In this document: piece by piece, positions 4,291-59,843 of the stretch
How positions within the stretch are numbered: position 1 is the stretch's first letter
Layout of the letters: every line of letters begins with the position of its first letter
The notes under the pieces: generated by a model
Database searches by the model: none
Told to the model about the DNA's origin: nothing
Seen by the model: only the letters and a program-made list of their open reading frames with translations
DNA from: Scenedesmus sp. PABB004
Taxonomy: Eukaryota
Length of the DNA stretch: 64,000 bases
Assembly: GCA_014905635.1 (NCBI GenBank)
Contig: JABVCE010000004.1
Location: 1,364,001-1,428,000 of the forward strand
Direction of reading: 5' to 3'
Program-made: the position numbers and the translations under genes

Positions 4291-5571
4291 TCAGACCTCG
4301 TCGTCGTCGTCAAACGCGGCGGCGGGCCCCGCGAGCACGCGGCGCGCGACCGCGTCGAAGCTGCGCACGTCGACGCCCCTGCGGCCGGCGCGGGCGCGGG
4401 CGCGCGTGGGCGGGCCGCGCGTGGGCGGGCCGCGCGCGGGCACGCGGGCCAGCGGCGGCGCGGCAGCTCCGCCCGCCAGCGCAGCACGGCGCGGCGCAGC
4501 CCGCGCGCACCAGAGCCACGCGGCCACGCCCGCGTCGCGCGCGCCCCACACGTCGTTGCGGCGGTCGTCACCGACGTGCACCGCGTCGCCCGGGCGCGTG
4601 CCGAGGCGGGCGAGCGCGGCGTCAAAGATCACGGGGTTTGGCTTCTCCGCCCCGACCTCGGCGCTGACGATGATGGCGTCAAACAGCCCAGCCACGCCGA
4701 GGTCGTCGAGCAGCGGGCGCAGGCGCGTGTCAAAGTTGGACACGCACGCGAGCCGCACGCCCGCGCCGCGCAGGCGCTCGAGCGCCGGCACCGCGCCCGG
4801 CGCGAGCGCCCACGCCGAGGGCCGCGTGTAGTGCTCGTACACCTGCCGGCGGGCCGGGCCGGGCGGGAGGCGCGGCCGGCTCAGCCGGGCCGCGGGCGCA
4901 GGCGGCGGCGGCGCCCGGCCGGCCCGGGCGCCCGTCCCCCGCGCCGCGCCGGGCCGCGCGCGTGCGTGCGCGCCTGCTCAAACATCTCCTCGCTGTCGCA
5001 GCCGGTCGACTGCTGCACGATGAACCGCCAAAAGGGCCGCCCGTCGCCGACGTAGCGCAGCGGGCCGCGCCACGGCGTGTTGTACGCGCTGCGCCAGCGG
5101 CGCGTGGGCAGCGGCGGCGCGTGGCGGGGCCGCACACCGCCGCGGCGGCGGCGCGTGGCGGGGCCGCACTCCGCCGCGGCGGCGCGCCCGCCGCGCGCCG
5201 CCTCACCGCCGGAAGCGCTGCAGCACCTCGTCGTCGCTGAGCGCGCAGCCGTACGGCTGCGCGTAGCGCAGGTACACGCCCGTCATCCGCTCGGCGGGCA
5301 GCAGCAGGGTGCCCGCAGCGTCCACCAGCAGCGCCTTGTACGCGTGCCGCGGCGCCGAGGTCGGCGCGCCGATCCAGCGCCCCGCCGCCGCCGCTGGCGC
5401 CGCGCCGCTCGCGCGCTGGACCGCCGCGGGCGCGCCGGCACCGGCGCTGGCGTGCAGCGGCGCGGCGCCGTGCGGCTGCCACGGCGCCCATGGGCCCCCG
5501 CCGCCGGCCGCAGCCGCGGCCCACGGTCGCCACGCGCCCGCCCGGCCCAGCGCGCCAGCCAGCGCGCCCAT
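4291..5571 (-). CDS. HAD-like hydrolase (HDHD3/REG-2-like), probably organelle-targeted
   Basis: LLVDAAGTLL (motif I), VSNFDTRL (II), AEKPNPVIF (III), HVGDDRRNDVWGARDAG (IV); 3 introns, one GC-AG (4843-4973). Confidence 0.92.
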
Positions 5572-6015
5572 CGGCCGGGGCGGCCGCGGCGGGCCCGACC
5601 GCTGCTGCTGCCGGCGCCCCGCGCTGCTGCCGGCGCTGCGCGACCGCCGAGCCCGGCTCACAGCCTGTGGTAGTGACCGTAGTGACCGTAGTGCGCCCCG
5701 ATTGCGCGATGCGCCACTCAGCCAGCGGGCAGCTCAACCGATGCGCCGCGCGCCCGCCCCACAAAATCCCGGCTCGCTCGCGGCGTTCGGCACGCCGCCG
5801 CCGCGCCACAGTGCTCAGAGCGACGCATTCCATCTCCAACCGCGCACCCGCCGCCTGCCGCGCCCCGCCCGCCACAGCAGCAGGCGCTGCTGCGCCGCCA
5901 GCCACCCGCCGCCCGCCCCCGCCGCCAACCCCCCCGGCCACCGCGCCAGCAGCGGCCGCCCCGCCAGCAGCAGCGACAGCAGCGGGGCATCAGGCGCGCG
6001 CAGCAGCAGCTCGCC

Positions 6016-8251: not shown

Positions 8252-10015
8252 GCGAGGGCGTCGGCGCGGCGCGCTGCGGCGCCCGCGCCGCGCAGCGCTT
8301 CTCGACTCGAGCAGCGCCCCCCCCCCCACCCACCTGCGTACTGCTCGGTCGCGGGGGTGGAGATCGCAAAGCCGTTGTTCCTGCACACAAACACCACCGG
8401 CGCGCCCAGGACCGCGGCAAACTGGGGCGCCGCGCGGCGGCACGGCGGCGGGGCGTCGGCGCGCGAGGCCCGCCCGCCGCGCCGGCTCCGCCTCCACCTG
8501 CGGCGCGCCGCACCTGCAGCGCGGCGTGCGCGTCGCCCTCGCTGGCGGCGCCCTCGCCAAAGTACGCGGCGGCCACGGTGTCCGCGCCGTCGAGCTTGGG
8601 GCGCCGAGCGGCACGGCAGCGGCGGCGGCGGCGGCAGCAGGGGACGCCGGCTCGGCATCGGCGCGCGCGCGCGAGCGGGGCGGAGCAGGCGGCGCATGCG
8701 GCCGCTCGCCACGCAGCGCCCGCTCCCGCTCCAGCGCACCTTCATAGCGTACGCCGCGCCCACGGCGTGCGGGAGCTGCGTGGCGAGCGGCGAGCTGACC
8801 GTCTGCCAGCAGAGCTCGGGGCTGGTGTAGTGGATCGGCATCTGCGCCGCACCACGCCGGCGGCGGGGGCGTGTGGGACGAGGCGCCCGCGCTGGACGCG
8901 GCTGCGTGCTGCCGCGCGCGCGCGCGCGCCTGGCGGCCCTGGCCCGGCTCGAGGGCGTTGCCAAAGAGCTGGTTGGCAAACGAGTCAAATGTAAAGCCAC
9001 GCCACAGCAGCACGCCGTGCTCCCTGCGCACCGCGGCGCGCGCGCGCGGGGCGGCGTCGCAGCGGCGCCGCGCCCCCGCGGCGCGCGCACGCCCCGGCCA
9101 GCCCGCTGCCAGCGCCCCGCCGCGCCGCGCCGCGCCGCGCGCCTGTACTGGCTGAAGACCTGGGCGGCCGGGCGAGCGGCGGGCGCAGGCGCGGTGGTGG
9201 TGGGTGGCTGCGCGCAGGCGGCGGGCGGTGCAGGTCCCCCCCCCTGCGCCGCCCCCCGCCGCACCACGTCCCGGGGGTCCAGCCCCGCGGCGCTGCCGAC
9301 GATGGCCGCCTCCTCGCCTGCCGCGCGCGTGCGCGCGCGGGCGGGCGGGCGGGCGGCGGCGGCGCGCGTGGGCTGGCGAGGCGCCGCCCGGCCCGCCGGC
9401 GCCGCCCGCGTGCGCGGCCATTCGTGCCGGGGGCCGCGGGCGCCGCGCCTGCGCAGGTCATGTAGAACGAGAACCGCCCCTGGCGCTGCGCGTCGTAGCA
9501 GACGGCGTCCATGACCTGCGCGGCGCGGCGCGGCGCGACGCGCTGGGCGGGGCTGCGCGCGCGGGCCCGCTCGCGCGCCGACGCAGCCGCGCGCGCCGCT
9601 CGCACAGCCCCGGGCGTGGCCTGGCCGCCCGGCCGACCTGCAGGCGGGCCATGGCGGTGTACAGCGCGACCGCGCCGGCCTCGTCCAGGTCGTGCGGGAG
9701 CGCGGCGGCGCCGTCGACCGGCGCGCCGCGCGCGTCGAGCGCGCGGAACGCCGGCAGCCGCTCGCTGGCCGGCCCGACCGGCCCGCCGACGAACTGCAGC
9801 TCATGCGTGAGCGGGACGCGGCCACCGGGGACGTCCAGCCAGTCGGGCGCGACGCCCCGGCCCTCCGCAGAGGCCGCGGCAGCGGCGTCGTGCGCCTCCG
9901 GCGCCGACGCCGGCGCCGACGCCGACGCGGCGCGCCAGGCGCTCCAGCCGCGCCCTATCGCTGCTGGGGTGCGCAGGAGCAGCGGCAGCGGCAGCAGCCG
10001 CGCAGACAGCTGCAT
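7582..10015 (-). CDS. BCKDHA: Branched-chain 2-oxo acid dehydrogenase E1 alpha subunit, mitochondrial
   Basis: [79 protein letters not shown]; 9 introns, 3 GC-AG. Start at 10015; an in-frame ATG at 10150 is an alternative. Confidence 0.96.
8179..8250. repeat. (GCG)n microsatellite, about 24 units, intronic
   Basis: Perfect gcg run in BCKDHA intron 8, next to the acceptor. Confidence 0.9.
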
Positions 10016-17200: not shown

Positions 17201-19270
17201 AGGAGGATGTGGACGAGGTGTGCGACGGCCTGCTGAACCAGCTGAGCCTCACCGATCCCTGCGGCTTCATGCACGCGGCGCGCCCGCCCCACCAGGGCCG
17301 GCGCGGGGCGCGCGCGCGCCGCGCCGGCGCTGCCCTCACGGGCGGCGGCGGCGACGAGGAGCAGGAGGAGGACGAGGCCGCGACGGTGTACGGCAGCTAC
17401 GCCGCAGTCTCGCTGTGCGACTGCAGGTGCGGGGCTGCCCAGGGGCAGGTGCGCCGGGGCCGAGGGACCGTGACAGCTGCCGCCGCACGCACGGACGGCT
17501 GAGCCGCCCGCCGCGCCGCGCCGCGCGTCGTCCGTAGGGCGTTGCAGTCGGTGGCGGCGTCGCTGGGCGGGCTGCTCGGGGAGCGCGCCTGGCAGCGCGG
17601 AGCCTACAGCGCCCAGGTCCTGCCGGCGCTCGTGGGCGACGCGTGGCTTACGGGGGCGCTCTGGCTCAGTGACAGCAAGGCGGGCGAGCTCGACGCGGCG
17701 GCCGCCGCGGCGGCCGACGACGGCGACGGCGACAGCGGCGGCCCCGCCCACGCTGGCCTCGCCGACGCGCAGCGCAGGTGCGGCGCCGCGCCCGCCCGCC
17801 GCACTGCCCCCGGTGCGCCTGACAGCTTCCCTGCGCGCATGCGTCGCATGCGTGAGAGAGAGAGAGAGCGCTTAAACCCAAACCCTGGCGCAGGAGCCCG
17901 CTGTGTCACCCGCTCTTCTATCGCGTGGAGGCGGAGGAGCACCACCTGGTGTCAGGGCCCGACCTGTCCGCGGCGGCGGCCCTGTTTGCCGGCGCGGTGC
18001 TGGAGCGCGCCCTCGAGCTGCACGCGCACACGCAGCACATCGTGCGCGGCCTCGCCCTCGACGCGCGCGGCGGCGGCGGTGGGGCCGCCTCGTTCGACGT
18101 GGAGCAGCTCCTGCAGCCGGCGGGGCGCGAGGTGCAGCCGGCAGGGCGCGGCCGCGCCCGCGCTGCCGGGCGCCGCGCCGCGCCGCGCACCCCGACGCCG
18201 CCGCGCCCGCGGCTCGCGCCGCGCCGCAGGCGGCGGCCGCCGCGCTCGTGCGCGCGGCGCGCGCCGCGGCGGCACGCAGCCCCGCGACCGCGGGCGACGA
18301 CCACCTGGCGACGCTGGAGCTGCTCGCGGCGGCCAAGGACGGCCCCCTCGTGCCGCTGCTGCTGCACCTGCACTTTGCGCACCGGCGCGACGACGGCCTG
18401 CCCCGCGGCACCGCGAGCACCGCGGCGGCCGCACACCGCGCCGGCTCCGCGCCACCGCCGCCGCGCGTGCTGCCCGCGGGCGGCGGCTGGCCCTGGCCGG
18501 GCGGCGACGCGGCCGCGTGCCCGCTCGCCGCGGAGGCGGCCGAGGCGGACGAGCCGCACTGGGGCCTGGGCGTGTACCAGCGAGTCTTCCTCACGCAGCG
18601 CGCCGCGGCCGCGTGGGCAGCCTGGCACGCCGACCGCGGCGACCCGGCGCAGCCGTTCCACCACGCCCACGCCGTGGCCGCGATCCGGCAGCAGGCGCGC
18701 GCGCGCACGCGGGGGCGGCTCGGCGACGGGCGGCGGCGGGACGCGGCGCCCGCGCGCCGCGCTGGGGGCCGACGCCGCCCGCCGCGCGCGCGTGCGCAGG
18801 TGCTGCGCATGGAGGCGCGCGGCGAGCTGCTCGACGCGCACAAGCTGCTGCTCTCTGCGGGCGCGATCTCGCAGGACGTGGAGGCCATCGTGCAGCTGAG
18901 CCGCGGGGTGCGCTCCGCGGCGCAGGAGCTCCGCGTGCTGCGGCACACGAGCGCCGTCCTCGGCGCCGCGCTCGCGCCGGGCGCGCTGCCGCCGGCCGCG
19001 CGCGCCAAGCTCGACGGCGACCGCGAGCGGCTGCGGGCGCTCGTGCTGACCTTCACGGGCCGCCTGCGGCGCGCGTTCGCGTCGCCGCGGCACAACTACT
19101 TCAGCGGCCTCGCCGCCGTTGCGCCGCGCCACGTCGCGCGCGTGCGCGCCGCGGCGCTGGGCGGCGCGTGGCCGCCCGAGGCGGCGGACTCACTCGAGCA
19201 GCTCGACTGCTGGACGCGCGCCTGCGAGCTCAGCGTGGCGGCGGCCGTGCACGACAGCCTGTCGTCGTAG
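14297..19270 (+). CDS. Large uncharacterised protein made of two homologous halves, each starting with an RIIa/Dpy-30-like motif
   Basis: ATG 14297, TAG 19268-19270; about 12 introns with typical signals (e.g. 17778-17893, GC-AG 18695-18799); strong GC3 codon bias in exons. Some internal exon boundaries are uncertain. Confidence 0.75.
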
Positions 19271-22700: not shown

Positions 22701-23806
22701 TACTGCAGGCGCGCCCGCGACGGGCCGCCAGCGGCGCCTGCGCGGCGGCGGCAGCAGCGCCCGGGCGGCGGCAGCAGCGCGGTGGCGGCAGCGGCACCCG
22801 CGCGGCGGCGCCTGCGGGCTCGCGCGGCGCGCGGGCGGGCGCCGAGGCGCCGCCGCGTGCGCGCGCGCGCGCGCAGGTTGCGGAGGTCGTGCGGCGCGCG
22901 TGGGCGGCGGGCGGCGTGGGCATCGCGCCGGACGAGTACGTCGTGCTCACCGCGCTGCGCGCCGCGGGCGCCGTGCGCGAGCTGCGGACCTGCAGGCGCG
23001 GCACGGCGGCGCGGCGGCGCGCGCGCGCGCGCACTGGCGGACGGGCGGCGAGGACGGCCGCCCCGCAGCGCGCGCGCTCACCTCGCCGCCGCCGCCGCAG
23101 GCAGCCGCGCGCGCTGCGCGCGCTCGCGCGGGGCGCGGCGGCCAACGCGCACCCGACGCAGCTCATGTATGGGGTGGCCCTGCCGCCCGGCTGGGCGCTG
23201 CGCGGCGACGGCACGCTCGTCCCCGAAGGCGGCGCCGGCGGCGCCGGCGCCGCGGCGCCGCCGGGCGCGGCCGAGCTCGAGGCGGCGTCGTGCGCGGCGG
23301 ACAAGCACCCGGTGACGTGGCGGGAGCTGGACGAGGCGGTCGACTGCGAGGTGCGGCCGGGCCGGGCAGGCAGGGAGGGCCGGGCAGGGAGGGCGGAGTG
23401 GCTCGCTGCGCGCGCCGGCGCGGGCGGCGGCTGACGTGCCCGGCGCGCCCGTGCGTGCCGCCGCGCGCAGGAGGACGAGGGCGGGGCTACGTTTGCGGTG
23501 GGCATGCGGCTGCGCAACCTGCTCGCCATCGCGGCGCTGCGCGGCGCGCTGTCGCTGCGCAAGGTCGACGTGCGCGTGCCCGGCGACGCGGAGGCCACGC
23601 GGGCGGCGGTCGACGCGCTGCTCAAGGTCCTGCGCGGCATGTGGGGCGGCGCGCCGCCGAAGCAGGTCAACTGCCGCCGCGTGCTGCTCTGGCAGCGCGC
23701 GCCGGCGGTCGAGGGCGGCGGCGGCGGCGGCGGCGGCGCGCTGCTGCTGGCGGCGGCGGCGGCCGCGGCGGCCGCGGCGGCGGCCGGCAGGTCGAGCGCG
23801 GCCTGA
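19778..23806 (+). CDS. Multidomain protein: coiled coil + unknown middle domain + C-terminal Branch/GT14-like (DUF266/BC10-type) glycosyltransferase-like domain
   Basis: 2.9-kb first exon. Motifs AVLLLLHD, AWEAW, LFCH, EAEWGGTSLVQA, HVLLASGHDVPL, HHQWMCLSVEHA, APDEYVVLT, KHPVTW, LSLRKVD follow the order of the Branch family. Introns 22709-22876, 22996-23100 and about 23351-23470. Confidence 0.72.
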
Positions 23807-33906: not shown

Positions 33907-33949
<43 letters not shown>

Positions 33950-35422
33950 CATCTACGTCGAGCGCATGCGCCGCGAGTACAAGGCGCGCGCCGCGCACAG
34001 CACAGCGCCGGCCCCGCCGCGCCGCGCAGCGCCGCGCAGTGCCGCGAGCCGCGGGCAGGGCCCCACCCCGCCGCGCACCTGCTGCGCGCGCCCACGCGGC
34101 CGCGGCGCGCGCGCGCAGGTCGACTGCGAGGTGGGCCGGCCCAAGGTGAACTACCGCGAGGCGATCCAGGCGCGCGCGGAGTTCAACTACCTGCACAAAA
34201 AGCAGAGCGGCGGCTCGGGTGCGCGGCGCGGCGCGGCGCCGGCGAGGGTGGCGTTGGTGGCGCCAGCGGAGCCCGGGCTGCTGGCGGTGGCGGGGCCGCG
34301 CTGCGCCGCCGCCCCCCCCCCCCCCCCACACCCACCCACACCCACACCCACACCCACACCCACACCCACACCCACACCACATCCACACCCACACCACCGC
34401 GCAGGCCAGTATGGCAAGGTCGGCGGCTACATCGAGCCGCTGCCCGAGGACGAGGGCACGGGCGGCGGCGGCGGCGGCGGGCCGCGGTTTGAGTATTCGA
34501 ACGAGATCGTCGGCAACGTCATCCCGCCAGAGTTCTACCCCGCGATCGAAAAGGGCTTCCGGGAGGCCGCCAACGCGGGCAGCCTCATCGGCGCGCCGGT
34601 CGAGGTGCGCGCGCGCGCGCGCGCGCGCGCGCGGGGGCTGGCGCTCGGCGGCGGCGGGGCGCCGCCGCCGCGCCGCCGGCGCCGACGCCGGCGCCGGCGC
34701 CGACGCGGCCGCGCGCGCGTGCGCGCCGCAGGGCATCCGCGTGGTGCTGAACGACGGCGGCGCGCACGCGGTCGACTCGAACGAGATGGCGTTCCGCCTC
34801 GCCGCGATCGGGGGCTTCCGCCAGGCCTACGCGTCGGCGCGGCCGACCATCCTGGAGCCGGTGATGAAGGTCGAGGTCACGGTGCGGCGCCACCCGCACC
34901 ACCCACTGCGCCGCCGCCGCCGCGCGGGCACGCGCGCGGCTGTCGCCGCGACCGCTGCGCGACGCGGCGCGGGCGCGGCGCGACGCGGCCGGCCGCCGCG
35001 GCGGGCGCGGGCGCGACGCGGCCGGCCGCCGTGGCGGGCGCGGGCGCGCGCGCAGGTGCCGGTTGAGTTTCAGGGCGGCGTGATGGGCGACCTCAACCGG
35101 CGCAAGGGCATGATCCTGGACAGCCGGCAGGAGGCGGAGGACGCGGTCATCGAGGCGCTCGTGCCGCTGAACGCCATGTTTGGCTACTCCACCGTGCTGC
35201 GCTCAAACACGCAGGTGCGTGTGCGTGTGTGTGTACGCGCGCGCGCCGCGCCCGGGGGAGCGCAGCGGGCCACACCGCGCGGGCGCGGACGGCGGCCGAC
35301 GCCTGCGTCCGCAGGGCAAGGGCGAGTTCACGATGGAGTACGCGTCGCACCAGCCCGTGACCAAGGAGCAACAGGAGGAGCTCGCCAACAGCAGCGCCGC
35401 CGCCAGGGCGGCCGCCAAGTAG
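31270..35422 (+). CDS. GFM1: Mitochondrial translation elongation factor G (EF-G1)
   Basis: [97 protein letters not shown]; 13 introns, 4 GC-AG. Confidence 0.97.
34330..34380. repeat. (CCCACA)n hexamer microsatellite after a poly-C run, intronic
   Basis: cccaca tandem in EF-G intron 10. Confidence 0.85.
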
Positions 35423-35839: not shown

Positions 35840-38800
35840 ATGAGCGGGTGGCTCAGAGGGCTGGTGAAGGATGTGGTCTCGGGAGACACCGTCGTGCTGG
35901 TGGGCGCCAGCGCGGGCCCCGCGGTGCCCGCGGAGAAGCGCCTGACGCTGTCCAGCCTCGTCGCGCCGCGCCTGGTGAGCGGCGGCCCCGGCCGGAGCGC
36001 GGGGAGGCGGGGCGGGCGGCCTGGATCATCGCGGCAGCGGTTGCCCGCGCGCGCCGCGCTCGCTGAGCGCCGCCCCGCCGCGCAGGGCAAGCGCGACGGC
36101 ACCACTCGCGACGAGCCGTTCGCATGGGAGAGCCGGGAGTTCCTGCGCAAGAAACTGATCGGCCAGGCGCGGGCCGCTGCTGCTGCTGTTTCTGCCGCCG
36201 CCGCGTGCCGCCGCCGGGGACGGGCGCGCGCCTGATCGCGCCGCCCCCGCCTCCCGCAGGCCTGCGTGTTCAAGGTCGACTACACGGTGGAGGTGGCCGG
36301 CAACAAGGAGTTTGGCTCGATCATCCTGCAGAACGGCAGCGCGCAGGAAAACGTGGCGGTCAGCATCGTGCAGAACGGCTGGGCCAAGGTGTGGGCGTGG
36401 AGCGGCACCAGCGGCAGCAGCGGCAGCAGCAGCGGTGGCGCCAGCAGCAGCGGCAGCGGTGGTGGCAGGAGCGGCGGTGGCGGCGGCGCGGCCCGCGGCA
36501 GCGGCGGCGGCGGCTCACGCGCGGCGGCGGCGCCGCAGGTGCGCGAGTCGGGCGGCGGCGCTGCGCAGAAGCAGAGCCCCTACTATGACGACCTGGTCAA
36601 GGCGCAGGAGGCGGCGCAGGCCGGCGGCAAGGGTCTCTGGAACAAGGCGCGGCGCGGGCGCGGGGCCGCCCCGGCCGCGCCGCGCGGCCCTGCCCGCCCG
36701 CCCGCCCGCCCGCCCGCCCGCCGCTGCGCGCGCCGCGCCGCGCCGCGCCACGCCCACTCGCGCCGCGCCGCGCCGCACCCTGCAGGACCCCGGCGCGATC
36801 GCGGCGTCGCTCGCGCCGGCGCCGGCCGACTTCAACGCCATGTCGTTCTTTCAGAGCGTCGGCAAGGGCAAGCCCGTGGCGGGCGTGGTGGAGGCGGTGC
36901 TCAACGGCTCCACGCTGCGCCTCACGCTGCTGCCCGAGCGCACGCCCGTGACCGTGGCCGTGGCGGGCGTGCAGTGCCCCAACATGGGCAAGCGCCCGCC
37001 GCCCGCCGCGGCGCCAGCGCCGGCGGCCGCCAACGGCGACGCCGCGCCGGCGGCCAACGGCGACGCCGCGCCCGCCGCGGCGCCCGCGCCGCCGCCCGCG
37101 GCCGGCGGCGCGGTCACCGCCGCGAGCATCGCCGCCGCGGGCGTCGCGCCAGGCGGCGCCGGCGGCGCGGGCGCGCCGGGCGGTCCCGAGCCGCTCGCGC
37201 GCGAGGCCAAGTGGTTCACCGAGCGCCGCGCGCTCGGGCGCGAGGTGCGCGTCGTGCTGGAGGGCGTGGACAAGTACGGCAACCTCTTTGGCTCGGTCTT
37301 CTACCCCGAGGCCGAGAAGCCGGCCAACCTCGCCGAGGCGCTCATGAGCGCGGGGCTCGCGCGCGCGGTGGAGTGGGGGCTCGCGATGATGACCAACGGC
37401 GCGATGCGCCTGCGCGAGATGGAGCGCGCGTCCAAGGCGGCGAAGCGGGGCATCTGGGCCAACTACGTCCCCGCCAACACCGGCCAGACCAAGCTCAGCG
37501 ACTCGTTCCTCGGCCGCGTCGTGGAGGTCGTGTCGGGCGACACGATGGTCATCAAGGACGTCAACGCCGGCGTCGAGCGCCGCGTCTCGCTCAGCAGGTG
37601 CGCGCAGCAGCCGCGGCGCGCGCCGCGCACGACGCGCCGCGCCCCGCAGCGCCCCGCCCGCGCCGCGTCCCGCCTAACGCCCGCCCGCGCCGCGTCCGCG
37701 CCCGCCGCTGCGTGCGCGCGCGCCGCGCAGCATCCGCGCGCCGCGCGCGGGCGGGCGCGACCGCGCGCCCGAGCCGCACGGCCTCGACGCGCGCGAGTTC
37801 CTGCGCAAGCGCTTCATCGGCAAGGAGGTCACCGTCAAGATGGAGTACACGCGCCGCATCGGCCCCGCGCCGCCGCAGCCCACCGACGGCGCGGCGCCCG
37901 CGGCCGACGTGAGGGCGCGGCGCGCGCGCGCGGCCGACGCTGCCGTCGCCGCGGCGGCAGGGCCCGCGCGCTCACCGCGCGCCCGCCGCAACCGCGCGCA
38001 GGACCGCGGCACGATGAGCTTTGGCGGCGTGGAGCTCAACCACGGGCGCGAGGGCGAGGACCGCAACGCGGCCGAGATGGTCGTCGCGCGGGGCTTTGCC
38101 TCGGTCATCCGCCACCGCAGCGACGAGGAGCGCAGCAGCGTGTACGAGGCGCTCGTGGACCTCGAGGAGAAGGCCAAGCAGGTGGGCGCCCCGACACGGA
38201 CGCCCCGCCCCGCGCCCCGCCCCGCGGCCGCGGGGGCGGCCGGGCTCGCTCGGGCGGCCGCGCCGGCCGCGCCGGCCCGTGGGCCGCGCTGACGCGCACG
38301 CGCCGCCGCCGCGCGCCGACCTGCAGGCCAAGCGCGGCATCCACAGCAGCAAGGAGGTGGCGGTGCCGCGCGTGAACGACGTGTCCACGCCCGGCAACGG
38401 CGCGCGCGCCAAGCAGTACCTGCCCTTCCTCCAGCGCGCCGGCAAGGTCGCGGGCGTGGTGGAGATGGTCTCCAGTGGTGCGCGCGCGCACGCACGCCGC
38501 CGCAGCCGCCGCGGCCGCGGCCGCTGCTCGCGCGCGGCGCCGCCGCGGCCGCCAGGGCAGCGCACGCGCGCCGCGCCCGACGCCGGCGCCGGCGCCCTGA
38601 CCCGCGCGCCCCGTGTGGCCCCGGCAGGGCACCGTCTGAAGATCCACATCCCCAAGGAGGGCGTGACCATCGCCATGGCGCCCAGCGGCGTGCGCGCGCC
38701 GCAGCGCCCCATGCCCGCCATGGGCGGCCGCCCCGCCGCGCCGGGCGAGCCGCACGGCGACGAGGCGTACGCGTGGACGCGCGAGCACTTCAACCAGCGC

Positions 38801-39561: not shown

Positions 39562-39631
<70 letters not shown>

Positions 39632-40362: not shown

Positions 40363-40863
40363 GGCCGCGGCGGCGGCAGGTCAGGGCCCTCGGGCAGGCG
40401 GCAGGTCAGGGCCCTCGGGGCAGGCGGGCGGCGTGTGACCCCGGAGGGTGGCACTGGTGTCAGAGTTCACTGCTGGCTCCCGGGGGCGCACGCTCGCGCG
40501 GTGCGCAGCGCCCCGCACTCCGGCTGATCTGGCTGCTCGTCAGTTTTGTGCCTGCAGCCGCGCCAGCGCCGGGCTGGCCGGCTCGCGCGTGGAGGGGTGT
40601 CCGTTTGGCCGCAACGCATGCCGCGGGCGCGCGCGCCGCGCCGTCGCGTCGGCGGCGGCGGTCGCGCCCGCGCCGAACTCGCTGCCGCTGCTGCCGGCGC
40701 CGTGATCGGCGCGCGCGCGGAGCAAGTTTTGGTCGTCGTCGCGGGCATTCGTGGTAATTCTCTTGCTCGTCACACCGCGCCACGGGTCCGCGCGCCTGCG
40801 CTGCGTCTCGCAGCAGCGCAGACGGGCGGGGGAGCCAGCGGGTGCCGCGCTGCCAGGCCAGGG

Positions 40864-41735: not shown

Positions 41736-44700
41736 ATGCGTCCGGCCGCGATGGCGGGCTGCGGCGCGGCGCCGCGCCAGGCGCCGCTGGCAGCAGCGAC
41801 GCCGCCGCCGCGCGGCGGCCAGCCGCCGCGCCGCGCCGGCCGCGGCCCGGCCGCGGCGCGCGCCGCGCCGGCCGTCGCCGACGCCCGGGCGGCCCTGGAG
41901 GCGGTGGACCTCATCCGCTGGCCCGAGGGCGCGCGGCCGAAGCGCGGCGGCGTGACCAAGGCGGCGCTCGTCGGCCGGCTCAAGGTGAGCTGGCGGCGGC
42001 GGGCGCGGCGGCGCGCGGGCAGCAGCAGCGGGTGGCGGTGGGTGGGCCGCGCGCGGCGCCCGCCGCCGACGCCAGCCCGCGCCGCCGCTGCGCAGGCCTC
42101 GGAGCTGCGCGCCGAGCTGGAGCGCCTCGGCGGCGACGCGAGCGGGACGAAGGAGCAGCTCGCCGAGCGGCTGCTGGCCGCCGTCACCGCCGCGGCTGGC
42201 GCCGGCGATGAGGCAGCCGCACCAGCAGCGGCAGCCTTGCCGGCGGCCTTGCCGGCGGACGCAGGGGCAGCCGCGCCGCGCAGGACGCCGCGGTGGCGCT
42301 CGACGGCCGCCACGCTGCCCGCGGCAGCCCAGCGGCCGCAGCAGCAGCAGGTGGAGCAGCAGCAGCAGGTGGAGCAGCAGCAGCCGCAGCAGCCAAAGGA
42401 GCAGCCGCAGCAGCCGCCGCGGGCGCAAGCGAGCGCGGCGCAGCCGGCGGCGCGCAGGCACGGCGCGTCGGTGCAGCCGGGCGGCGTCGCGCCGCTCGAC
42501 CCCGCCGAGGCGGCGCGCGTCGCGGCGGCGGCGGGCGTGGACCTGGGCGCGCTGCCGCCGCTCGTGGAGCGCGCGCGGGGGCACGTGTATGACGCGGCAG
42601 AGCTGCACCTGACAGAGGAGGAGCGCGAGGCCGTGCTCAAGGTGCGCCGCCCCGCCCCGCCCCGGCAGGCCGCGCGCGGCGCCCCGGCGACGGGCCCCGC
42701 GCGCCGCGCCGCGGGGCTCAGCGCCGCGCCGCGCCGCGCCGCGCCGCAGTCGATGCGCTCCGGGCTGGCGCTCACCATGCTCGGCGGCGCGGCCGGCGAC
42801 GCGGCGCTCGGGGAGGGCGCGCCGCCGTGCGTCGCGCTCGTGCGCGAGCGCGACGTGTGGCTCTTTGACGTCGGCGAGGACACGCAGCGCGCGCTCATGG
42901 CGCGCGAGCACCTGCGCCCCTCCAAGGTGCGCGCGCGCGCGGTCCGCGCGCGCCTGCACGCAGCCGCCGCCGCTGCTGCCGAAAAAGGCCGCCCCGGCCC
43001 CTGAGCGTCACCGCCTGCTGCCCCGGTCGGCCCCTATGCCCTGCTCCCCCGCCCCCGGTGGTCCCCCCCCCCCCCGTGGTCCCCCCAGATGCACCGCATC
43101 GTCATAACGCGCCAGGCGCCCGACGCGCTGCTGGGCCTGCCGGGCGCGCTGTGCGTGATCGGGGCGTCGCGCGAGAAGGGCCACGAGACCGCCGACATCC
43201 CGGTGCACGTGTACGGCCCCGAGGGCACCGCCGCCTTCCTCAGCACACTCTACGAGGTGCAACGCGCCACGCCGCGGGCCGCGACGCGCCTCGCACCGCG
43301 CCGCCGCGGGCCGCGCCGCGGCCACCGCGCCGCGGGCCGCGCCGCCGGGGGCGCCGCCGGCGCGCGGGGGGGGGGGGGCGGGTGGGCCCTCCCCCGCTCA
43401 CCCCGGCGCGCGCGCCCGCGGCCGGCGCCGACCGCGCGCAGTGCTCCAACACCTTCCTGGAGATGCCGGTCGTGGTGCACGAGTTTGTCGCGCGCGCGGT
43501 GCCGCCCGAGGCCGCCGCGCCGGAGCAGCTCAACGCGCGCGCCAAGCTGTGGCGCGCGCTCATGCCGCCCGACCAGCTCAACCCGCTGGGAGCCATCGAC
43601 GGCGGGCTCGAGGCGTTCATGCCCATGCAGGCGCGCACGGCCACCACGCGCGCCGGGCCGTGCGTCCCGCGCCACGCGCGCCCTCCGCGGCGGGGCCCCC
43701 GCCGCGACGCGCGCCCGCGCCGCAACGCGCGCCCGCGCCGCCGCGCCGCGCCGCGCCGCGCCGCGCGCAGGGCCGCGCGCGCTTCAAGCGCGGCGCGCGC
43801 GCGCCCGGCGGCGTGCTGGCGAAGAACCCGCGCGCCGGGTACCGACCGATGCCGCCGCCGCCGCCGGGGGACCCGGGCCTCGAGGGGCGCCTGCCGGTGG
43901 GCGCGCTGACGTGGACGGTCGTCGCGGACGAGGCGGCGCTGCTGACCGCGGTCGCGCTCGACGCCGACGCGCCGACCTGGGGCGTTGTGTGGCGCGAGAC
44001 CGACCGCCAGGGCAACCTCAGCGTGCCGCGCTGCGAGGCGCTGGGCGTCGTCGACGGTGCGGCGCGCGGCCTGGCGGCCCGCCGCGGCGGCTCGCGGCTC
44101 GTGCATCCTCACTCACCGCCACCGCCACCCCACACCCGACCGCGCGCACAAACCACCCCCGCCCACGCGCACAGAGTCGCAGTACCGTGACGCGAAGAAC
44201 GGCCGCCCCGTGACCAACAAGGACGGCGTGCTCATCCCGGCGGGCCTCGTGTGCAGCCCCGACAAGCCCGGGCGCCGCATCGCGCTGCTGCCGCCGTGCG
44301 CAAGCGCCGACAGCATGGCGGCGCTCGCGGCGGGCGCGGACGTGCTGCTCGGCGCCGCGGGCGCGGGCGCCGTCGGCGGCGGCGCGCTCGGGCGCGGCCT
44401 CGGCGAGCTCGCGCAGGCGTGGCGCGTGCGGCACCTTGTCGTCACGGGCCTGCCCGCCGGCGGCGCCGGCGCGGCGGGCGCGGAGGAGGCCGCTGGCGGC
44501 GCCGCCGCCGACGCGGTGCTGTCCGCGGTGCGGCGCGCGTACGTGAGCGGGCCGGCGCTGCCCGGGCGCGAGGGCCTGTCGCTCATCTTGGAGGAGAACC
44601 TGGGCGAGCTGGAGCCGGGGCCGCCGGACATGGCCGACAAGACCGCGGTCGCGCGCGCGACGAGCCTCGCCGCCGAGCCCGCGGTCGACCCCGCGACGCA

Positions 44701-54125: not shown

Positions 54126-55449
54126 ATGGAGCCCGACGCGCCGTCGCACATCGACGGCGACGGCTACGTCGTCAGCGCGGCCGACGCCGCGGCCTTCCGG
54201 GCCAACGGGTTCGGCGCCGCGCGCGGGCCGCCGGCGCCGCGCAACCGCAGCGCACGCCGCGCCGCGTACGCGCGCCGCGCCGCGCCGCGCCGCAGCTTTG
54301 TGCGCCTGCGCGGGGTGCTGACCGAGGCGGAGATGGCGGCAGTCATCGACCCTGTCTACCACGCCTTCATGCGGCGCGAGGTGGCCGTGCCGGGGCGGGA
54401 CCTCTGCGACATGGCCGGCGGCCCGCCCGGCGCCGCGCCGGAGGAGTTTAAGGTTTACAACGTCATGTTGCCCCGCATCTACCGCCCCGACTGGCAGGGC
54501 AACGTGCTGGAGCGCCGCTGCAAGGCGCGCGCGCGAGGGGGAAAGGGAGGAGGCGCGCCGGCGCCCGCGCGCGCCCGGCGCCGCGCCTGCGCGCGCGCCG
54601 ACGCCCCCGCGCCCGCGCGCAGGCGATCGCCGATCAGCTACGAGGCGGCGGTGACGGCGACATGGACTTTGAGATTGACTTCGACCAGATCTTTGCGAAG
54701 CGCGCCTCTGCGCCCGACAGCGCGTTTGACTGGCACCAGGTGGCGGCGGCGGCGGGGCACGCGTGCAGGCGGCGCGAGGCGCCAGACGCCGCCGCGACAC
54801 CGCGCCGCCGTGCCGCCCAGGACGCCGCGTACTGGCCCCCGCTGAAGAGCGACACCGCGGCCGTCAACTGCTGGCTCGCCGTGTCGGACGTCACCAAGGA
54901 GAGCGGCTGCCTGCGCTATGTGCCGGGGAGCCACCTGGAGCCGCAGCTGCGCAGGCACCGCCCAGGCGCGCCGCCGCGCGAGCCCGCGCCGCCGGCGCGC
55001 GGCTGCTCCCGCGCCCGCTCACGCCGCGCCGCGCCGGCCGTCGCGCCGCGCCCGCAGTCGGCGCGACGCGCGCGGAGTCGCACGCGCTGCGCACCGACGT
55101 GGACGAGGCGCGCGAGGCGGTCGTGGACGTGCCGTGCGCGCGCGGCGACGTCATCGTGCACCACGAGGCCGTCGTCCACGCGAGCTGGCCCAACACCAGC
55201 CCGCACTGGCGCCATGCCTACATCCTCAACTTCCGCAAGGTGCGCCACACGCCGCCCGGGCGGGCAGGCGGGGGCCCGCAGGGTAGGCTGCCGAGCGCGC
55301 GCGCCCACGGCCGCCGCGCCGCGCCGCGCCGCCCGCAGCGCGCGTGTATCGCGGAGGAGCGCGCGCTGGGGTTCACGCACAGCCACAACGACGAGGTCAA
55401 TTGGGACGTCTTTGCGCGCTGGCAGGGCGGCGGCGGCCCCGCGGGGTGA
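54126..55449 (+). CDS. Phytanoyl-CoA dioxygenase (PhyH)-family Fe(II)/2-oxoglutarate dioxygenase
   Basis: FRANGFVRLRGVL, FAK, WHQDAAYW (HxD), NCWLAV, GCLRYVPGSH, GDVIVHHEAVVHASWPN...R; 5 introns, 2 GC-AG. Confidence 0.92.
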
Positions 55450-55551: not shown

Positions 55552-58500
55552 TCAGCCCGACGCCGCGCCGGCGGCGCTGCGCGTGTAAAAGTCGCTGAAG
55601 TTCAGCCGCGCCAGCAGGAAGCGGACCTCGGCGTTGACCTGCACCGGCAGCGGCGGCGGCGGCGGGGGCAGGGGCGCGCTGAGGCGCCGGGCGCGCAGGG
55701 GGGGCTCTCGGGCGCGCGGCAGGCCAGGCCAGGCCCCGCGCCGCGCACCTCGTTGGCGGCGGCGGGCAGGGCCCTGAGGAAGGCACGCAGCGACGTGCGG
55801 TAGCTGTCCGCGAGGTGGGCGAGCGTGTCGGCCAGCTCGCCGAGCTCGTCGTCCGGCACCGCCTGGGCCGGCGCCGCGCTCGTCGCGCCCCAGCGCCCCG
55901 CCGCGGTGTTGGCCGCCGCCTCGGCGGCGCGGCGCTCGCGCGCCATCAGCCCCGCCTGGACCTGTCGCGGCGGAGGCGGTGGCAGTGCGTTGGCGGCGGC
56001 AGCGCGTGAGGCGGCCGTGGCGGCGGCGCGCGGGAGCCCGGCCCCGCGCACGCCCCCCGCGCAGCCGCACCCGCTCGTTGAAGCGCGCCGCGAGCGGCGC
56101 GAGGCCCATGCACGTCCTCAGCAGCTGCCCCAGCCCCGGGCGAAGCGCCTCGGCCGCGCCGCCGCCAAGCAGCGCGCGCTGCAGCACTGACGCCAGGAAG
56201 CGGTCGTGCGCGGCGATGAGGCTGTCCAGGTCGGGCGCGACGCCCGCGGCGCACACAAACTCGGACCACGCGCCTGCGACGCGTGAGGTGTCGGCGGCGG
56301 TGGCGGACCGGCTCGGCGCGCGGTGCGCGGCGCCCGCCCCCGCGGTCCCCGCCTCGGCCCCCGCGCGGCCAGCGCGCGCTGGCCGCGCTGCGTGCTGCGG
56401 CGGCGCGGGCCACATGGAGGCGGCTCACACTCGAGGACCTCCAGGTTCACGTAGTACTGCAGGTTGACGCACAGGTGCGCCATCTCGGCGCGCAGCCGCA
56501 GGCACGCGCGCAGCAGGCCCAACAGGCGCGGGCGCGCGGGGTCGGCCCCGAAGCGCGGCAGGCTGCGCTCGACCTCGACCTGCGGCGCGGCGGCGCGTGG
56601 GGGGGAGGGGGGGGGGGGCTTGAGGGCGCGTGGGAGGGCGGCCGGCCGCGCGCGGCGCGCGTGGGGGAGAGAGCGGGAGGCGGCCCCGGCGGCGCGCGCA
56701 CCTTGAGCACGTGCCATGCGCTGCCGAGGCTGCGCTCGACGCGGCGCAGCGTCCACAGCAGGCGGCTGAGCCGGCTGTAGCTCGCCTGGGCGGCGGGCGT
56801 GAAGATGCTGCTCAGCGGCGGCCCCAGCGCGTAGTGCAGCGAGAAGACGTCCCACCCGGTCTCGCCCTCGCCTGCGGCCGCGGCGGCGGCGCCCGGCGCC
56901 CGGCGCAGGCGGGCGGGCGGTCGGCGCAGGCGGGGCGCGCGCGGCGGGGGCGCGCGGCGAGGGCGGCGCGGCCCCCCGCGCCGCGCGCTCACCGGCGGGG
57001 GCCTTGCGCGCGCGCAGGCGCTCCTGCGCGCCGCCCTCCTCGTCGGCGCGGCCGCCGCCGGCGCTCGCGGCGAGCGCCTGGCGCAGGAGGTGGTTGAGCG
57101 TCACCTCGCTCACGTCGCGCGCGGGCTTGGCGAGCTCGGGGCCGAGGCAGTCCAGCAGCGCAACCACAAAGTCGCCCTGCGCGCCGGCGGCGGGGGGGGG
57201 GGGGCGTCGGGCAAAGTGTGTGTGTGTGTGTGAGTGAGTGAGTGAGTGAGTGAGTAAGTGTGTGTGTGTGTGTGTGGGGGGGGGGGGGGCATGTGCGCCG
57301 TGCAGCGGTGCGCTGCGCCGCCGCCCCCGCCGCAAGCACGCGCCCGCTGCCGCACGCCGCACCTGGCCCAGCAGCAGGTAGCGCCGGATGGCCTGGCAGT
57401 GCCGCTCCAGCTCGCCGCTGCTGTGCAGCACCGCCATCAGCCGCGCGTCCACGGCGCGCCCCGCCGACACGACGGCGCGCTCGAGCACCGCCAGCTGGGT
57501 CGGCGGCGCGGCGCGGCGCGCGGCGTCGGCGGGGCCGCGCAGACGCCGCGGCGCCCCCCCCCCCCCCCCACACGCACCTGGCCGTAGCCGAGCGCGGCCG
57601 CCGCGGCCGCCGCGCCGGGCGCCCAGTCCTGCACCCAGCGCCCGTCGCCGCACGCGTCGCGCAGGAAGTTGATCGACTTGCCCGACCGCAGTATCGTGGC
57701 CGCGAGGCCGGGGCCCACAAACGGCGGCAGCTTGGCCGGCTCGAGCCGCACCGCGTCGCGCCACGCGTCGCCGCCGCCGCCGCCGCCGCCGGGCACGACA
57801 AAGAACTCGCAGGCCGGGTCGTCCAGGCGGCCCTCAAACACCCACGCCCGGATCATGTCAAACAGGGGCACACACATCTGCGGCGGCCGGCGCCGGGTGG
57901 TGTGCGTGCGCCGTCGGCGCGCCGCGCCGCGCGCGCAGGGCTGGCACCGGCGCGGCGCGGCCCCCCGGCAGGCTGCCGCGCGTCGCGCGCCGCGCGGCCG
58001 CGCGCCTGGTGCAGGATGCGCGTCGCGTAACTGGCCGCCAGCGGGTCGCCGACCTTGCTCGCCGCCCACACCGCGCCCGCGAGGTCGCCGCCGAGGCGCC
58101 CCCGGCAGCCGTCCACGAGCGCGGCGAGCAGGCGCATGCGGCGCAGCGGCTCCGCGAGCCACAGCTGCAGCCGGCGCAGCGAGAGGTACGGCCTCGCCGC
58201 GTCGCGCGCGGGCGACGCGTCGTCGCCGCCGCCGCCGCCTGCGGGCCGGCCGGCGCGCGGCGCAACCGGCGTGGGTCGCCCGTGCGCGGGACACGGCGCA
58301 CCCCCCCCTCCCCGGCCCGTACCCGGCGCGCCGCCCGCGCGTGCTGTGTTCGCACCCGCGTGCGGCTGCGGCGCGGCCAGCTGGTCCTGCAGCACCGCCA
58401 TGAGGCGATAAAAGTCGGTCACCTCCTCGCCCAGCGCCGCGCACAGCGCCTGGTGCACCGAGCCGCGCCCGCGGCCGCGCCCCTCCGCGATGGCCGCCTG

Positions 58501-59843
58501 CACGCGCCTGCGCGGCGCGGGCGCACGCACGCGGGCACCGAGCACGCGGTCGGCGGGCCGCGCCGCCGCCGCGCCGCCCGCGCCGCGCCCCGCGCCGCGC
58601 CCCGCGCGCGCAGCGGTCCCCGCGCCGCACCTGTACATCAGGCCGAGCTCGCCGAGCTCGTGCAGCAACGTGCGCGCGCCCGCCGGCAGCGGCAGCTCCT
58701 CCTGCGGCGCGACGCGCAGCCCCGCGCCGGGGGCGGCGGGGTCGGGCGGCCCGGGCGCAAAGCTGTTGTAGCGCCCCGAGAAGCCCTGCACGGCGCGCAG
58801 CACGTCCTTGACCAGCGCCGCCTGCTTCACCTGCGCGCGCGCGCGCACGGGCGGCAGGCGGGCAGGTGGGCGAGCCCGGCCGCGGCGCTCAGGCGCGCCC
58901 GCCGGGCAGGCGCCCCGCCCGCGCGTGCGGTCGCCGCTCGCTCACCGCGCCCCCCGCGCTGCCGGCGGCCGCGTGCTGCTCGTGCGCCAGCGCGCCGTCG
59001 TGCAGGGGCTTTGGCCGCGGGCCCTGCGCGTGCGCGCGGGCCGGGGCGGGGCCGCCGCGGCGGGTGAGCGGCGCCGGCGGGGGCGGGCGCGGGCCGGCTG
59101 CAGCCGCGCGGCGCGCACCCTGGCCGCCTGGTCGCTGCTGCCCTGCGCCGCGTCCGCCGCCCCGGCCGCGAGGCCCCGCACGGGCAGCACCTGCGCGCGG
59201 GCAGCGCGCGCGCCGCGGGGGCGGGCACGCGGTCGGCGGGCGGCGGCGCTGCAGGCGGCGGCGCCGCGGGCGGCGGCGCTGCGGCCGACGGCGCGCGCCG
59301 CGCGCCGGCCGCGCGCCGCGCGCCTTGGGCAGCTGCAGCGGGCGGTACGCGGCGATGCTGCGTCCAGCCGGCAGCCCCGGCCCGCTGTCCGCGAGCTGCT
59401 GCAGCAGCGCCAGCACCGCCGCGCGCCCGCGCGGCGTGAGGCCCGGCTGCTGGCAGAGCTGCGCGTAGAGCTCCGCGAGCCTGCGGCGGCGGCGGCGGCG
59501 GCGCGCGGGTCGCGCGCGCGGGGGCCCGCGGCGCGGCCCGCGCCCGCCGCCCAGCCGCGCGCCCGCGCGCGCACCGCGCCGCGTCGTCCGGGCGCTGCCC
59601 CGCCGCCAGGCGCTGCCGCAGCGCGTGGAAGAGCACGTCCGGGTCGCCGCCGGCGTCGGCGGCGATGCCCGAGTCGGCCACGCGCAGGGCGTAGCCCAGC
59701 AGGGCGTCGGCGCCGCCGGGCGCGGCGGTCGGGGGCGGCGACGCGTCGCCGCGCGCCAGGCCCGCCACCAGCTCCTCCAGCAGCGCCGCGCGCTCGCCTG
59801 GCCCGCCCCGCCAGCGCGGGGGCGCGCCGGAGGCGCCCAGCAT
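55552..59843 (-). CDS. GCP3: Gamma-tubulin complex component 3 (GCP3/Spc98)
   Basis: LVKDVL, ELGELGLMY, DFYRLMAVL, LSLRRLQLWL, RGGD-like GGDLAG, MIRAWVFEGRLDDPACEFFV, GKSINFLR, AIRRYLLLGQGDFV, GWDVFSLHY, NLQYYVNLEVLECAW, RLNFSDFY; many introns, at least 2 GC-AG. Confidence 0.95.
57216..57289. repeat. Compound (GT)n-(GAGT)n-(GT)n-poly-G microsatellite, intronic
   Basis: Read directly within a GCP3 intron. Confidence 0.88.

What the first reader, a model, noticed from the sequence alone, without database searches (positions are those of the whole stretch)
4843..59323. Very high frequency of GC-AG introns with a fixed GCGCG donor
Seen: at least 18 introns need or favour a GC donor. HAD 4843-4973; BCKDHA 8842-8929, 9024-9142, 9318-9448; unknown protein 18695-18799; GT14-like 22709-22876, 22996-23100; EF-G 31585-31794, 31951-32105, 33288-33413, 33984-34118; TSN 36167-36259, 36647-36785; tRNase Z-like 43631-43770; PhyH 54525-54622, 54966-55057; GCP3 57878-58005, 59191-59323. 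In five homology-anchored genes (BCKDHA, EF-G, TSN, PhyH, HAD) this is 12 of 42 introns. All begin GCGCG and nearly all follow exonic AG, i.e. the local GTGCG consensus with T to C. Known: GC-AG introns are around 1% in most eukaryotes and normally need a strong U1 match (GCAAGT). Inference: donor recognition is altered or relaxed (variant U1/U6 snRNA or U1C/Luc7), possibly driven by extreme GC pressure.
Basis: partly seen in the sequence, partly recalled or inferred. Interest (0 to 1): 0.72.

Follow-up and report, generated by a model that had tools for sequence, protein, structure and literature searches.

The report
Green alga with many GC-start introns
In this extremely GC-rich green alga about one intron in five or six appears to begin with GC instead of the usual GT, over ten times the normal rate, although the splicing RNAs that read intron starts look ordinary, which suggests that DNA composition alone can wear down a nearly universal splicing rule.

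Summary
All 18 sites read GCGCG…CAG, and 17 follow exonic AG. Ten are pinned by homologous proteins.

The trait is genome-wide. A self-trained gene model on 700 kb outside the window gives 304 GC of 1,396 GT/GC donors (22%; 14.5–18% after confidence filters), while decoy GA/GG donors stay near 1%. Prp8 itself has 11 GC donors in 32 introns.

The proposed variant snRNA is not supported: the U1 5′ end, U6 ACAGAGA and U5 loop 1 are canonical. A systematic T→C base-calling error is unlikely (16 of 16 conserved Val/Cys codons in GTGCG context keep T). These are not a transposon family, and one orthologous intron is GT in a relative.

Best reading: ordinary major-class introns whose +2 T drifts to C under extreme GC pressure (C:T about 5–8:1 at comparable free sites). 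This is tolerated mainly after exonic CAG/AAG (35% GC versus 2.5% without AG). A co-adapted protein factor remains possible.

No RNA run was listed, so splicing is inferred, not observed. High GC-donor rates are known (Emiliania about 55%, Micractinium 7%); my searches found none reported for this alga.

The parts
4843..4973 (-). GC-AG intron, HAD-like hydrolase gene (CAG|GCGCGCA)
   Evidence: gene model, GT-only loss 20.8; length not divisible by 3; not homology-anchored
8842..8929 (-). GC-AG intron, BCKDHA (GQGRQ|MPIHY)
   Evidence: free-donor spliced alignment with three homologues
9024..9142 (-). GC-AG intron, BCKDHA (FSQY r EHGV)
   Evidence: free-donor alignment; the GT 6 nt upstream deletes conserved YR
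9318..9448 (-). GC-AG intron, BCKDHA (MTCA g EEAA)
   Evidence: free-donor alignment
18695..18799 (+). GC-AG intron, unknown protein
   Evidence: gene model only, GT-only loss 12.6; in frame without stop, so retention is not excluded
22709..22876 (+).
   Evidence: gene model only, loss 22.6; in frame without stop
22996..23100 (+). GC-AG intron, same gene
   Evidence: gene model only, loss 21.7; in frame without stop
31585..31794 (+). GC-AG intron, mitochondrial EF-G (IKDIHE|VRGRDG)
   Evidence: free-donor alignment, 7/8 and 7/8 identical flanks
31951..32105 (+). GC-AG intron, EF-G (VDFTIE|VERALR)
   Evidence: free-donor alignment, 8/8 and 8/8 flanks; GT-only deletes 6 conserved residues
33288..33413 (+). 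GC-AG intron, EF-G (DIPSA|SAGDI); weakest anchored case, no exonic AG
   Evidence: free-donor alignment; a GT 4 nt downstream with a later AG costs one residue and a conserved Gly; P0001 reads through it
33984..34118 (+). GC-AG intron, EF-G (RREYK|VDCEV)
   Evidence: free-donor alignment, 8/8 and 8/8 flanks
36167..36259 (+). GC-AG intron, Tudor-SN (KKLIGQ|ACVFK); the orthologous intron is GT in L060/L061
   Evidence: in-frame stop if retained
36647..36785 (+). GC-AG intron, Tudor-SN (GLWNK|DPGAI)
   Evidence: 2 of 3 homologues; GT-only loss 21.5
43631..43770 (+).
   Evidence: gene model only, loss 13.2
54525..54622 (+). GC-AG intron, PhyH-family gene
   Evidence: gene model, loss 8.3; PhyH family by Pfam on later exons; not homology-anchored
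54966..55057 (+). GC-AG intron, PhyH-family gene
   Evidence: gene model, loss 16.7; flanking exons hit PF05721 positions 114-158 and 175-213
57878..58005 (-). GC-AG intron, GCP3 (RILHQ|MCVPL)
   Evidence: exact continuity with human GCP3 numbering
59191..59323 (-). GC-AG intron, GCP3 N-terminal part
   Evidence: gene model only, loss 21.9

Best explanation
These are ordinary major-spliceosome (U2-type) introns, read by canonical U1, U5 and U6, whose +2 position sits at a balance between very strong GC-ward substitution pressure and moderate purifying selection. The whole donor has drifted to G/C wherever tolerated (+3 G 97%, +4 C 66%, +5 G 95%). T at +2 has become one additive contributor instead of an absolute requirement: it can be lost when the exon ends in (C/A)AG, which supplies pairs to U1 positions 9-11 and to U5 loop 1, and hardly ever otherwise. 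Short introns (median 122 nt) of about 86% GC with a strong CGCAG acceptor probably let intron definition make up for the weak U1 duplex. Shown: the DNA pattern, the protein continuity, the canonical snRNAs, the dependence on the exon end. Inferred: that splicing occurs at these sites, the pairing roles, the population-genetic balance and intron definition.
For: 1) Rate: 239 GC, 824 GT, 7 GA, 4 GG of 1,074 introns in 540 kb, nearly the same from two starting priors; hold-out 66 GC, 275 GT, 3 GA of 344; 178-223 of 1,227 after filters; no clustering by gene (chi-square 181 on 183 df).
2) Canonical snRNAs.
3) Compensation: robust GC share 118/321 after CAG, 31/105 after AAG, 13/115 after GAG, 16/638 without AG (odds ratio 21). 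This is the direction described for mammalian GC donors (PMC2490688, part 1 of 2 read).
4) Pressure: G[C]G to G[T]G is 8.5 in intron interiors, 6.2 on their antisense, 4.9 in intergenic DNA. The log offset to donors is 3.3-3.9 overall, 2.2-2.8 after (C/A)AG, 5.3-5.8 without AG. After (C/A)AG it is 2.47, 2.52 and 2.55 in three of four +3..+5 contexts.
5) On genome GC the offset is 2.6 raw, about 3.05 for the robust set (hand arithmetic), against 2.75-4.2 for 10 of 16 species I picked from the 121 in PMC6310983 supplements 7 and 8.
6) Old intron: TSN intron 2 is AAG|GTGCGC in L060/L061. GC introns are not a repeat family (10/304 vs 3/304 with a partner).
Against: 1) No RNA evidence.
2) Local intron GC content does not predict GC donors within the genome (z = 0.2).
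3) Six of the 16 species picked, all algae of 56-67% GC, show 0.03-0.7% major non-canonical sites (offsets 5.5-8.8). This may be GT-only annotation but is untested.
4) The G?GGG context breaks the constant offset (2 GC vs 57 GT, offset 4.9), the other small contexts have few sites, and the GAG baseline falls from 7.1 to 1.7 on the antisense strand.
5) This genome lies at the low end of the offsets, leaving roughly a 1.5- to 3-fold excess unexplained.
6) PMC2490688 argues that substitution bias does not explain GC-donor gain in mammals.
7) The CAG|GCGCGC duplex with U1 is only -4.5 kcal/mol against -9.3 for CAG|GCAAGT, so how the site is chosen among unused look-alikes (98 AGGCGCG inside exons) is not explained.
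Confidence: 0.66

Rival explanations
1. A protein factor has co-adapted (LUC7, U1-70K, U1-C partners, Prp28/Prp8 proofreading, or an enhancer-binding protein that recognises GCGCG), so +2 U is checked less strictly than in other eukaryotes; GC pressure only supplies the alleles.
For: Very weak U1 pairing at working donors; +4 C is enriched in GC donors (z = 5.2) though it pairs with neither U1 nor U6 by the standard register; only one LUC7 gene was found where animals and plants keep two subfamilies with opposite donor preferences (PMC11842720, passages); the U1 stem-loop I loop departs from the Rfam consensus; residual excess over composition.
Against: Canonical U1, U6 and U5 pairing regions; the six Prp8 exons aligned to solved structures are closely conserved, and the QAAIK stretch is shared with 8xi2_A; METTL16 and SNRNP27 present; GA/GG donors are not accepted; +4 C enrichment largely follows the context-specific C:T baseline.
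Confidence: 0.2
2. GC donors are positively selected as weak, regulated or alternative sites.
For: Enrichment of GC donors in alternatively spliced genes is described for animals and Arabidopsis (PMC2490688).
Against: They are spread evenly over genes, sit in constitutive cores of EF-G and Prp8, and one case is GT in a relative.
Confidence: 0.05
3. Nearby GT donors are used instead, or in-frame GC 'introns' are retained.
For: 7 of 18 have lengths divisible by three and 6 of these hold no in-frame stop; 13 of 18 have an in-frame GT within 60 nt; P0001 reads through 33288-33413.
Against: GT-only alignments delete or insert residues in near-invariant motifs; Prp8 keeps a constant offset of 58 to 8xi2_A from residue 449 to 2129 across 22 introns, 7 of them GC.
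Confidence: 0.03
4. Systematic T>C miscalls in GTGCG context in the assembly.
For: No reads could be laid; the assembly has indel differences between duplicate stretches L063/L064.
Against: Conserved Val/Cys codons in GTGCG context keep T in 12 of 12 window cases and 4 of 4 Prp8 cases seen in alignments; chance 0.008-0.034 at a 19-26% error rate (hand arithmetic). None of 4 GCG-CG sites checked faces Val. The GC share tracks the exonic -2/-3 bases in the biologically expected direction.
Confidence: 0.02
5. GC introns arose from an Introner-like transposon that carries or captures GC donors, as in pelagophytes.
For: Pelagomonas Introners have both GT and GC donors (10.1101/2021.10.25.465678, passage); slightly more GC than GT introns have a similar partner (10 vs 3 of 304).
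Against: 97% of GC introns have no similar partner; same median length as GT introns; one orthologous intron is present with GT in a relative.
Confidence: 0.02
6. C-to-U editing of pre-mRNA restores GU at +2.
For: None from tools; C-to-U editing is recalled from plant organelles.
Against: Not needed, since canonical spliceosomes use GC donors; an editor would not obviously need exonic (C/A)AG.
Confidence: 0.01

Closest known systems
U2-type GC-AG introns of plants and animals (about 1%; PMC6310983 gives 1.2% for plants, PMC3167603 abstract about 1% for human)
   Same: GC...AG ends, canonical major snRNAs, compensation by a better exonic (C/A)AG, interconversion with GT at old introns
   Different: 15-22% instead of about 1%; no compensation on the intron side (GCGCG, not GCAAGT); U1 duplex about half as stable
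Emiliania huxleyi, about 55% GC donors (PMC7779022, passage)
   Same: genome-wide high GC-donor rate in a GC-rich alga
   Different: haptophyte, so an independent origin; higher rate; I saw no donor context or snRNA data for it
GC-rich chlorophytes in PMC6310983 supplement 8: Micractinium conductrix 8,057 of 114,347, Chlorella sorokiniana 7,090 of 124,435, Micromonas pusilla 496 of 8,831, Ostreococcus tauri 173 of 2,044 (major non-canonical, GC-AG plus AT-AC, from annotations)
   Same: green algae with raised major non-canonical rates (5.6-8.5%)
   Different: this genome is about 2-3 times higher than the highest of them
Dinoflagellate GC/GA donors (PMC12584245, passages) and pelagophyte Introner elements (10.1101/2021.10.25.465678, passage)
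   Same: frequent GC donors with AG acceptors
   Different: no GA class here (7 of 1,074, weak calls); introns are not a repeat family

Membership tests
U2-type GC-AG intron | GC at the 5' end and AG at the 3' end, fixed by exon continuity | tested here: met
   Prp8
U2-type GC-AG intron | canonical U1, U4, U5, U6 present | tested here: met
   U2 was not searched
U2-type GC-AG intron | stronger exonic consensus than GT donors | tested here: met
   AG before 162 of 178 robust GC donors vs 382 of 1,004 GT donors
U2-type GC-AG intron | near-perfect U1 match on the intron side (GCAAGT), typical of mammals and plants (recalled; PMC2490688 states closer adherence to consensus) | tested here: not met
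   GCAAG in 1 of 178 robust GC donors; median duplex -4.5 kcal/mol
U2-type GC-AG intron | excision shown in RNA | not testable with these tools
   no RNA holder was listed
U12-type intron | RTATCCTT 5' motif (recalled) | tested here: not met
   donor logos
U12-type intron | U11/U12/U4atac/U6atac genes | not tested
Introner elements | sequence-similar intron families | tested here: not met
   10 of 304 GC introns have a partner
Introner elements | new intron positions absent from relatives | tested here: inconclusive
   one GC intron is shared with L060/L061 as GT; the other TSN GC intron has no counterpart in that intron-poor gene
Introner elements | terminal inverted repeats and target-site duplication | not tested
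   not examined
Dinoflagellate-type GC/GA donors | a real GA-AG class | tested here: not met
   AG|GAGCG used at 1 of 139 sites
   only 41 of 245 covariance candidates were scored and the assembly may be incomplete

The most novel reading that the evidence does not exclude
This lineage has a spliceosome whose protein side (for example a single LUC7, an altered U1 stem-loop I/U1-70K contact, or relaxed Prp28/Prp8 proofreading) has made +2 U optional and reads a minimal (C/A)AG|GYGCG signal with only 4-5 pairs to an unchanged U1: a natural suppressor of the GT>GC lesion.
Probability: 0.2. Interest if true: 0.75.

Novelty: new variant of a known kind. Interest (0 to 1): 0.52.

Why it matters
It turns the 'invariant' GT into a measurable quantity: the cost of C at +2 can be estimated by context from hundreds of sites, and thousands genome-wide. 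That makes testable whether base composition alone sets GC-donor frequency across eukaryotes, with Emiliania, Micractinium and low-GC Scenedesmaceae as comparisons. It also shows a canonical U1 apparently working with 4-5 base pairs, which bears on how weak donors are chosen and on why some human GT>GC changes still splice. In practice, GT-only gene finders will break about one junction in five or six in such genomes, and possibly in GC-rich relatives.

Tried and rejected
1) RNA: no RNA holder was listed for window 30500-40400, so no reads were laid; this is no evidence either way.
2) First TSN homologue search used the wrong frame and found nothing.
3) PhyH: first bacterial scan found no relative among 581 stretches; the second gave 6 distant loci. 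With them the free-donor aligner fell mostly on arbitrary dinucleotides. That is useless as an anchor but shows the aligner has no built-in pull to GT/GC.
4) Metagenome scan for TSN gave 3 loci of 92 candidates: L060 and L061 give the same alignment (one independent case) and L062 shows no intron.
5) Cryptic-site avoidance (CAGGCGCG observed/expected 0.49 sense vs 0.90 antisense in exons) was set aside as circular, because called donors are removed from exons.
6) Atlas search of the LUC7 first exon gave only low-score unrelated clusters; the PDB gave only yeast Luc7; subfamily unassigned.
7) Prp8 QAAIK in place of human QACLK looked like a lead but is shared with 8xi2_A.
8) Five non-U1 hits of the U1 pattern: four lie in AT-rich stretches of C78/C79, and L100 lacks a U1-like 5' end.
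9) Extending the error test to the plastid EF-G paralogue added no Val-before-CG site.
10) My recollection of a high GC-donor rate in Monoraphidium neglectum was not found in PMC5556983 main text or supplements and is dropped; its annotation shows 19 of 67,746.
11) The gaps in Raphidocelis EF-G P0007 end at two of the window's intron positions, one of them the GC intron 33984: a hint of missed GC donors there, not tested on DNA.
12) Earlier scan findings were not available.
Full report
SETTING. The window is 79.9% GC with no N and lies at G000:C35:1364001-1428000 of a 39.97 Mb, 80-contig genome. Two exon searches returned proteins 100% identical over the query, P0001 and P0122, which their source labels Scenedesmus sp. 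PABB004; the next EF-G hit is Tetradesmus obliquus at 83%. I treat G000 as a Scenedesmaceae-type chlorophyte.

1. THE OBSERVATION. All 18 listed stretches read GCGCG...CAG on the coding strand and 17 follow exonic AG. GC is the commonest dinucleotide here, so allowing GC donors can always produce a fit. I therefore wrote a protein-to-genome aligner that requires only the AG acceptor and leaves the donor free.

With P0002, 13 of 13 EF-G junctions land on GT (9) or GC (4) without gaps. Forcing GT lowers the score from 3037 to 2880 and breaks motifs such as VDFTIE|VERALR. BCKDHA gives 3 GC donors with each of P0123, P0125 and P0126; P0126 also placed one spurious junction in the variable N-terminus. 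For TSN, the 3 best of 16 homologues were shown: 36167 is GC in the 2 that span it and 36647 in 2 of 3; spurious junctions appear in low-complexity linkers. GCP3 57878-58005 joins exactly at human residues 421/422.

So 10 of 18 are homology-anchored and 8 rest on the gene model. Seven of the 18 are in frame, six of them without a stop, so frame alone does not exclude retention there. The public models P0001 and P0122 already use 8 of these GC donors and read through one.

2. GENOME-WIDE RATE. I built a two-strand gene model that allows GA, GC, GG and GT donors, seeded it on three window genes and self-trained it on 540 kb outside the window. It converged on 824 GT, 239 GC, 7 GA and 4 GG of 1,074 introns from a flat prior, and on 821/240/7/2 from a 97% GT prior. 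It recovered 34 of 34 seed introns and 18 of 18 claimed ones (the 34 were the seed, so this is not fully independent).

A further 160 kb not used in training gave 66 GC, 275 GT and 3 GA of 344, and all 30 blocks hold GC donors. With equal +2 scores, AG|GCGCG is used at 135 of 628 sites against 1 of 230 for AG|GGGCG and 1 of 139 for AG|GAGCG. Raw calls include false ones: 7 of 25 in the window are weak, and an indel in duplicate locus L064 produced a spurious one. At a score threshold of 8, 223 of 1,227 well-supported introns are GC (18%), and 178 (14.5%) also have no adequate GT substitute; stricter thresholds, applied one-sidedly to GC, give 11% and 8%. A fair range is 15-22%.

Prp8 is predicted as a 2,341-residue protein with 11 GC donors in 32 introns. 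Six of its exons between residues 449 and 2129 keep a constant offset of 58 to PDB 8xi2_A across 22 introns, 7 of them GC, and GC junctions 26 and 29 are exactly adjacent. The offset is 57 in exon 2, before a variable region.

3. ARTEFACT CHECK. No RNA run was listed and no reads were laid. If GTGCG were miscalled at the 19-26% rate seen at donors, conserved Val or Cys codons in that context should show it. They keep T in 12 of 12 window cases and 4 of 4 Prp8 cases; the chance is 0.008-0.034 by hand arithmetic. This is suggestive, not final.

4. MACHINERY. Two identical U1 genes begin AUACUUACCUG. A DNA search and a pattern search blind to the 5' end found no other U1, though only 41 of 245 covariance candidates were scored. 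U6 has ACAGAGA, U5 loop 1 is canonical and U4 is present. METTL16 and SNRNP27 are present. U1-C looks ordinary by eye. The Prp8 RNase H exon matches 8xi2_A, which I recall as the Chlamydomonas spliceosome; the tool does not name the organism. One LUC7 gene was found. U2, U11/U12, U1-70K and Prp28 were not examined.

5. ANATOMY AND MECHANISM. GT donors are themselves drifted: +3 G 97%, +4 C 66%, +5 G 95%, with a median U1 duplex of -5.8 kcal/mol; GC donors give -4.5, against -9.3 for CAG|GCAAGT. What separates GC from GT donors is the exon end: robust GC share is 118/321 after CAG, 31/105 after AAG, 13/115 after GAG and 16/638 without AG. In a logistic fit, -2 A (z 7.1) and +4 C (z 5.2) favour GC and -3 G disfavours it (z -3.0); local intron GC has no effect (z 0.2). 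GC and GT introns have the same median length (122 nt) and acceptor, and do not cluster by gene. GC introns are not a repeat family. In the one independent relative found, the intron matching TSN 36167 is AAG|GTGCGC.

At comparable free sites C outnumbers T 4.9- to 8.5-fold, so donors are held about 28- to 48-fold below neutrality overall, 9- to 16-fold after (C/A)AG and about 190- to 330-fold without AG (log offsets). On genome GC the offset is 2.6 raw. Ten of 16 species I chose from PMC6310983 supplements lie at 2.75-4.2, and six algae lie at 5.5-8.8, perhaps through GT-only annotation. Composition thus accounts for most of the excess if the first group is the right comparison.

My best reading (0.66) is drift under GC pressure against moderate selection with an unchanged RNA core, the exonic (C/A)AG paying for the lost U-A pair. 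The main rival (0.2) is a co-adapted protein factor. Pairing roles are from established knowledge, and intron definition is inference.

6. KNOWN AND NEW. Plants average 1.2% GC-AG (PMC6310983: passages, supplements 7 and 8 read whole, others searched by term); humans about 1% (PMC3167603, abstract); compensation and GT>GC turnover are described in mammals (PMC2490688, part 1 of 2). A weak correlation of genome GC with splice-site GC is in print (PMC7072748, passages). High rates are known: Emiliania about 55% (PMC7779022, passage), dinoflagellates (PMC12584245, passages), pelagophyte Introners (10.1101/2021.10.25.465678, passages; bioRxiv supplements not available), and green algae at up to 7-8.5% in the supplement table.

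Ten searches and term look-ups in PMC12571836, PMC5966456, PMC13315243, PMC5556983 (with supplements), PMC10639083, PMC3488318 and PMC11842720 (passages only) showed no report of this trait for this alga or for Sphaeropleales. The library lacks most subscription papers, including possibly the genome paper, so absence from print is not established.

VERDICT. Real, genome-wide, and apparently the highest green-lineage rate among the data I saw. It is a new variant of a known kind: GC donors at 15-22% with minimal U1 pairing and canonical snRNAs. Interest 0.52; 0.75 if a protein-level suppressor is found.

Noticed in passing
window 45022-45700 and 51465-52139: An inverted repeat of about 680 bp, 96% identical (383-bp core 99%), encloses a predicted gene at 46314-50561 with a CCT-like motif (recognised from memory). 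No other copy in the window or fetched loci. Could be a recent inverted duplication or a gene-carrying element.
   Followed up: partly
window 31270-40362: Public protein P0001 (1,841 aa) fuses the EF-G and Tudor-SN genes and reads through introns 33288-33413 and 39149-39250; P0122 reads through BCKDHA intron 9160-9264. These look like annotation errors.
   Followed up: yes
L002 1501-1659 (G000:C46): U1 stem-loop I loop reads GCUCACGUAG where the Rfam consensus has GAUCAAGAAG; this is the U1-70K site (recalled). Not compared with other chlorophytes.
   Followed up: no
L066-L069 (G000:C4 about 565800-567700): Only one LUC7 gene found; donors with -1 G but no +5 G are rare (44 of 1,057). Subfamily not assigned.
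   Followed up: partly
L063 (G000:C1 end) and L064 (G000:C61): The U1-C region occurs twice, 3,052 aligned bases with 3 substitutions and several indels, probably a redundant contig.
   Followed up: partly
L005 568-715 and 1501-1609; L003/L004: U4 and U5 genes lie about 790 bp apart on one strand; a truncated U6 copy lies about 3 kb from the full gene.
   Followed up: no
P0007 (Raphidocelis EF-G annotation): Lacks two segments whose ends coincide with window intron positions, one being the exon before GC intron 33984; may reflect GC donors missed by a GT-only annotation.
   Followed up: no
donors in L006-L059 and L081-L096: AG|G?GGG donors almost never take C at +2 (2 GC vs 73 GT), unlike GCG, GAG and GTG contexts. 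Unexplained.
   Followed up: no
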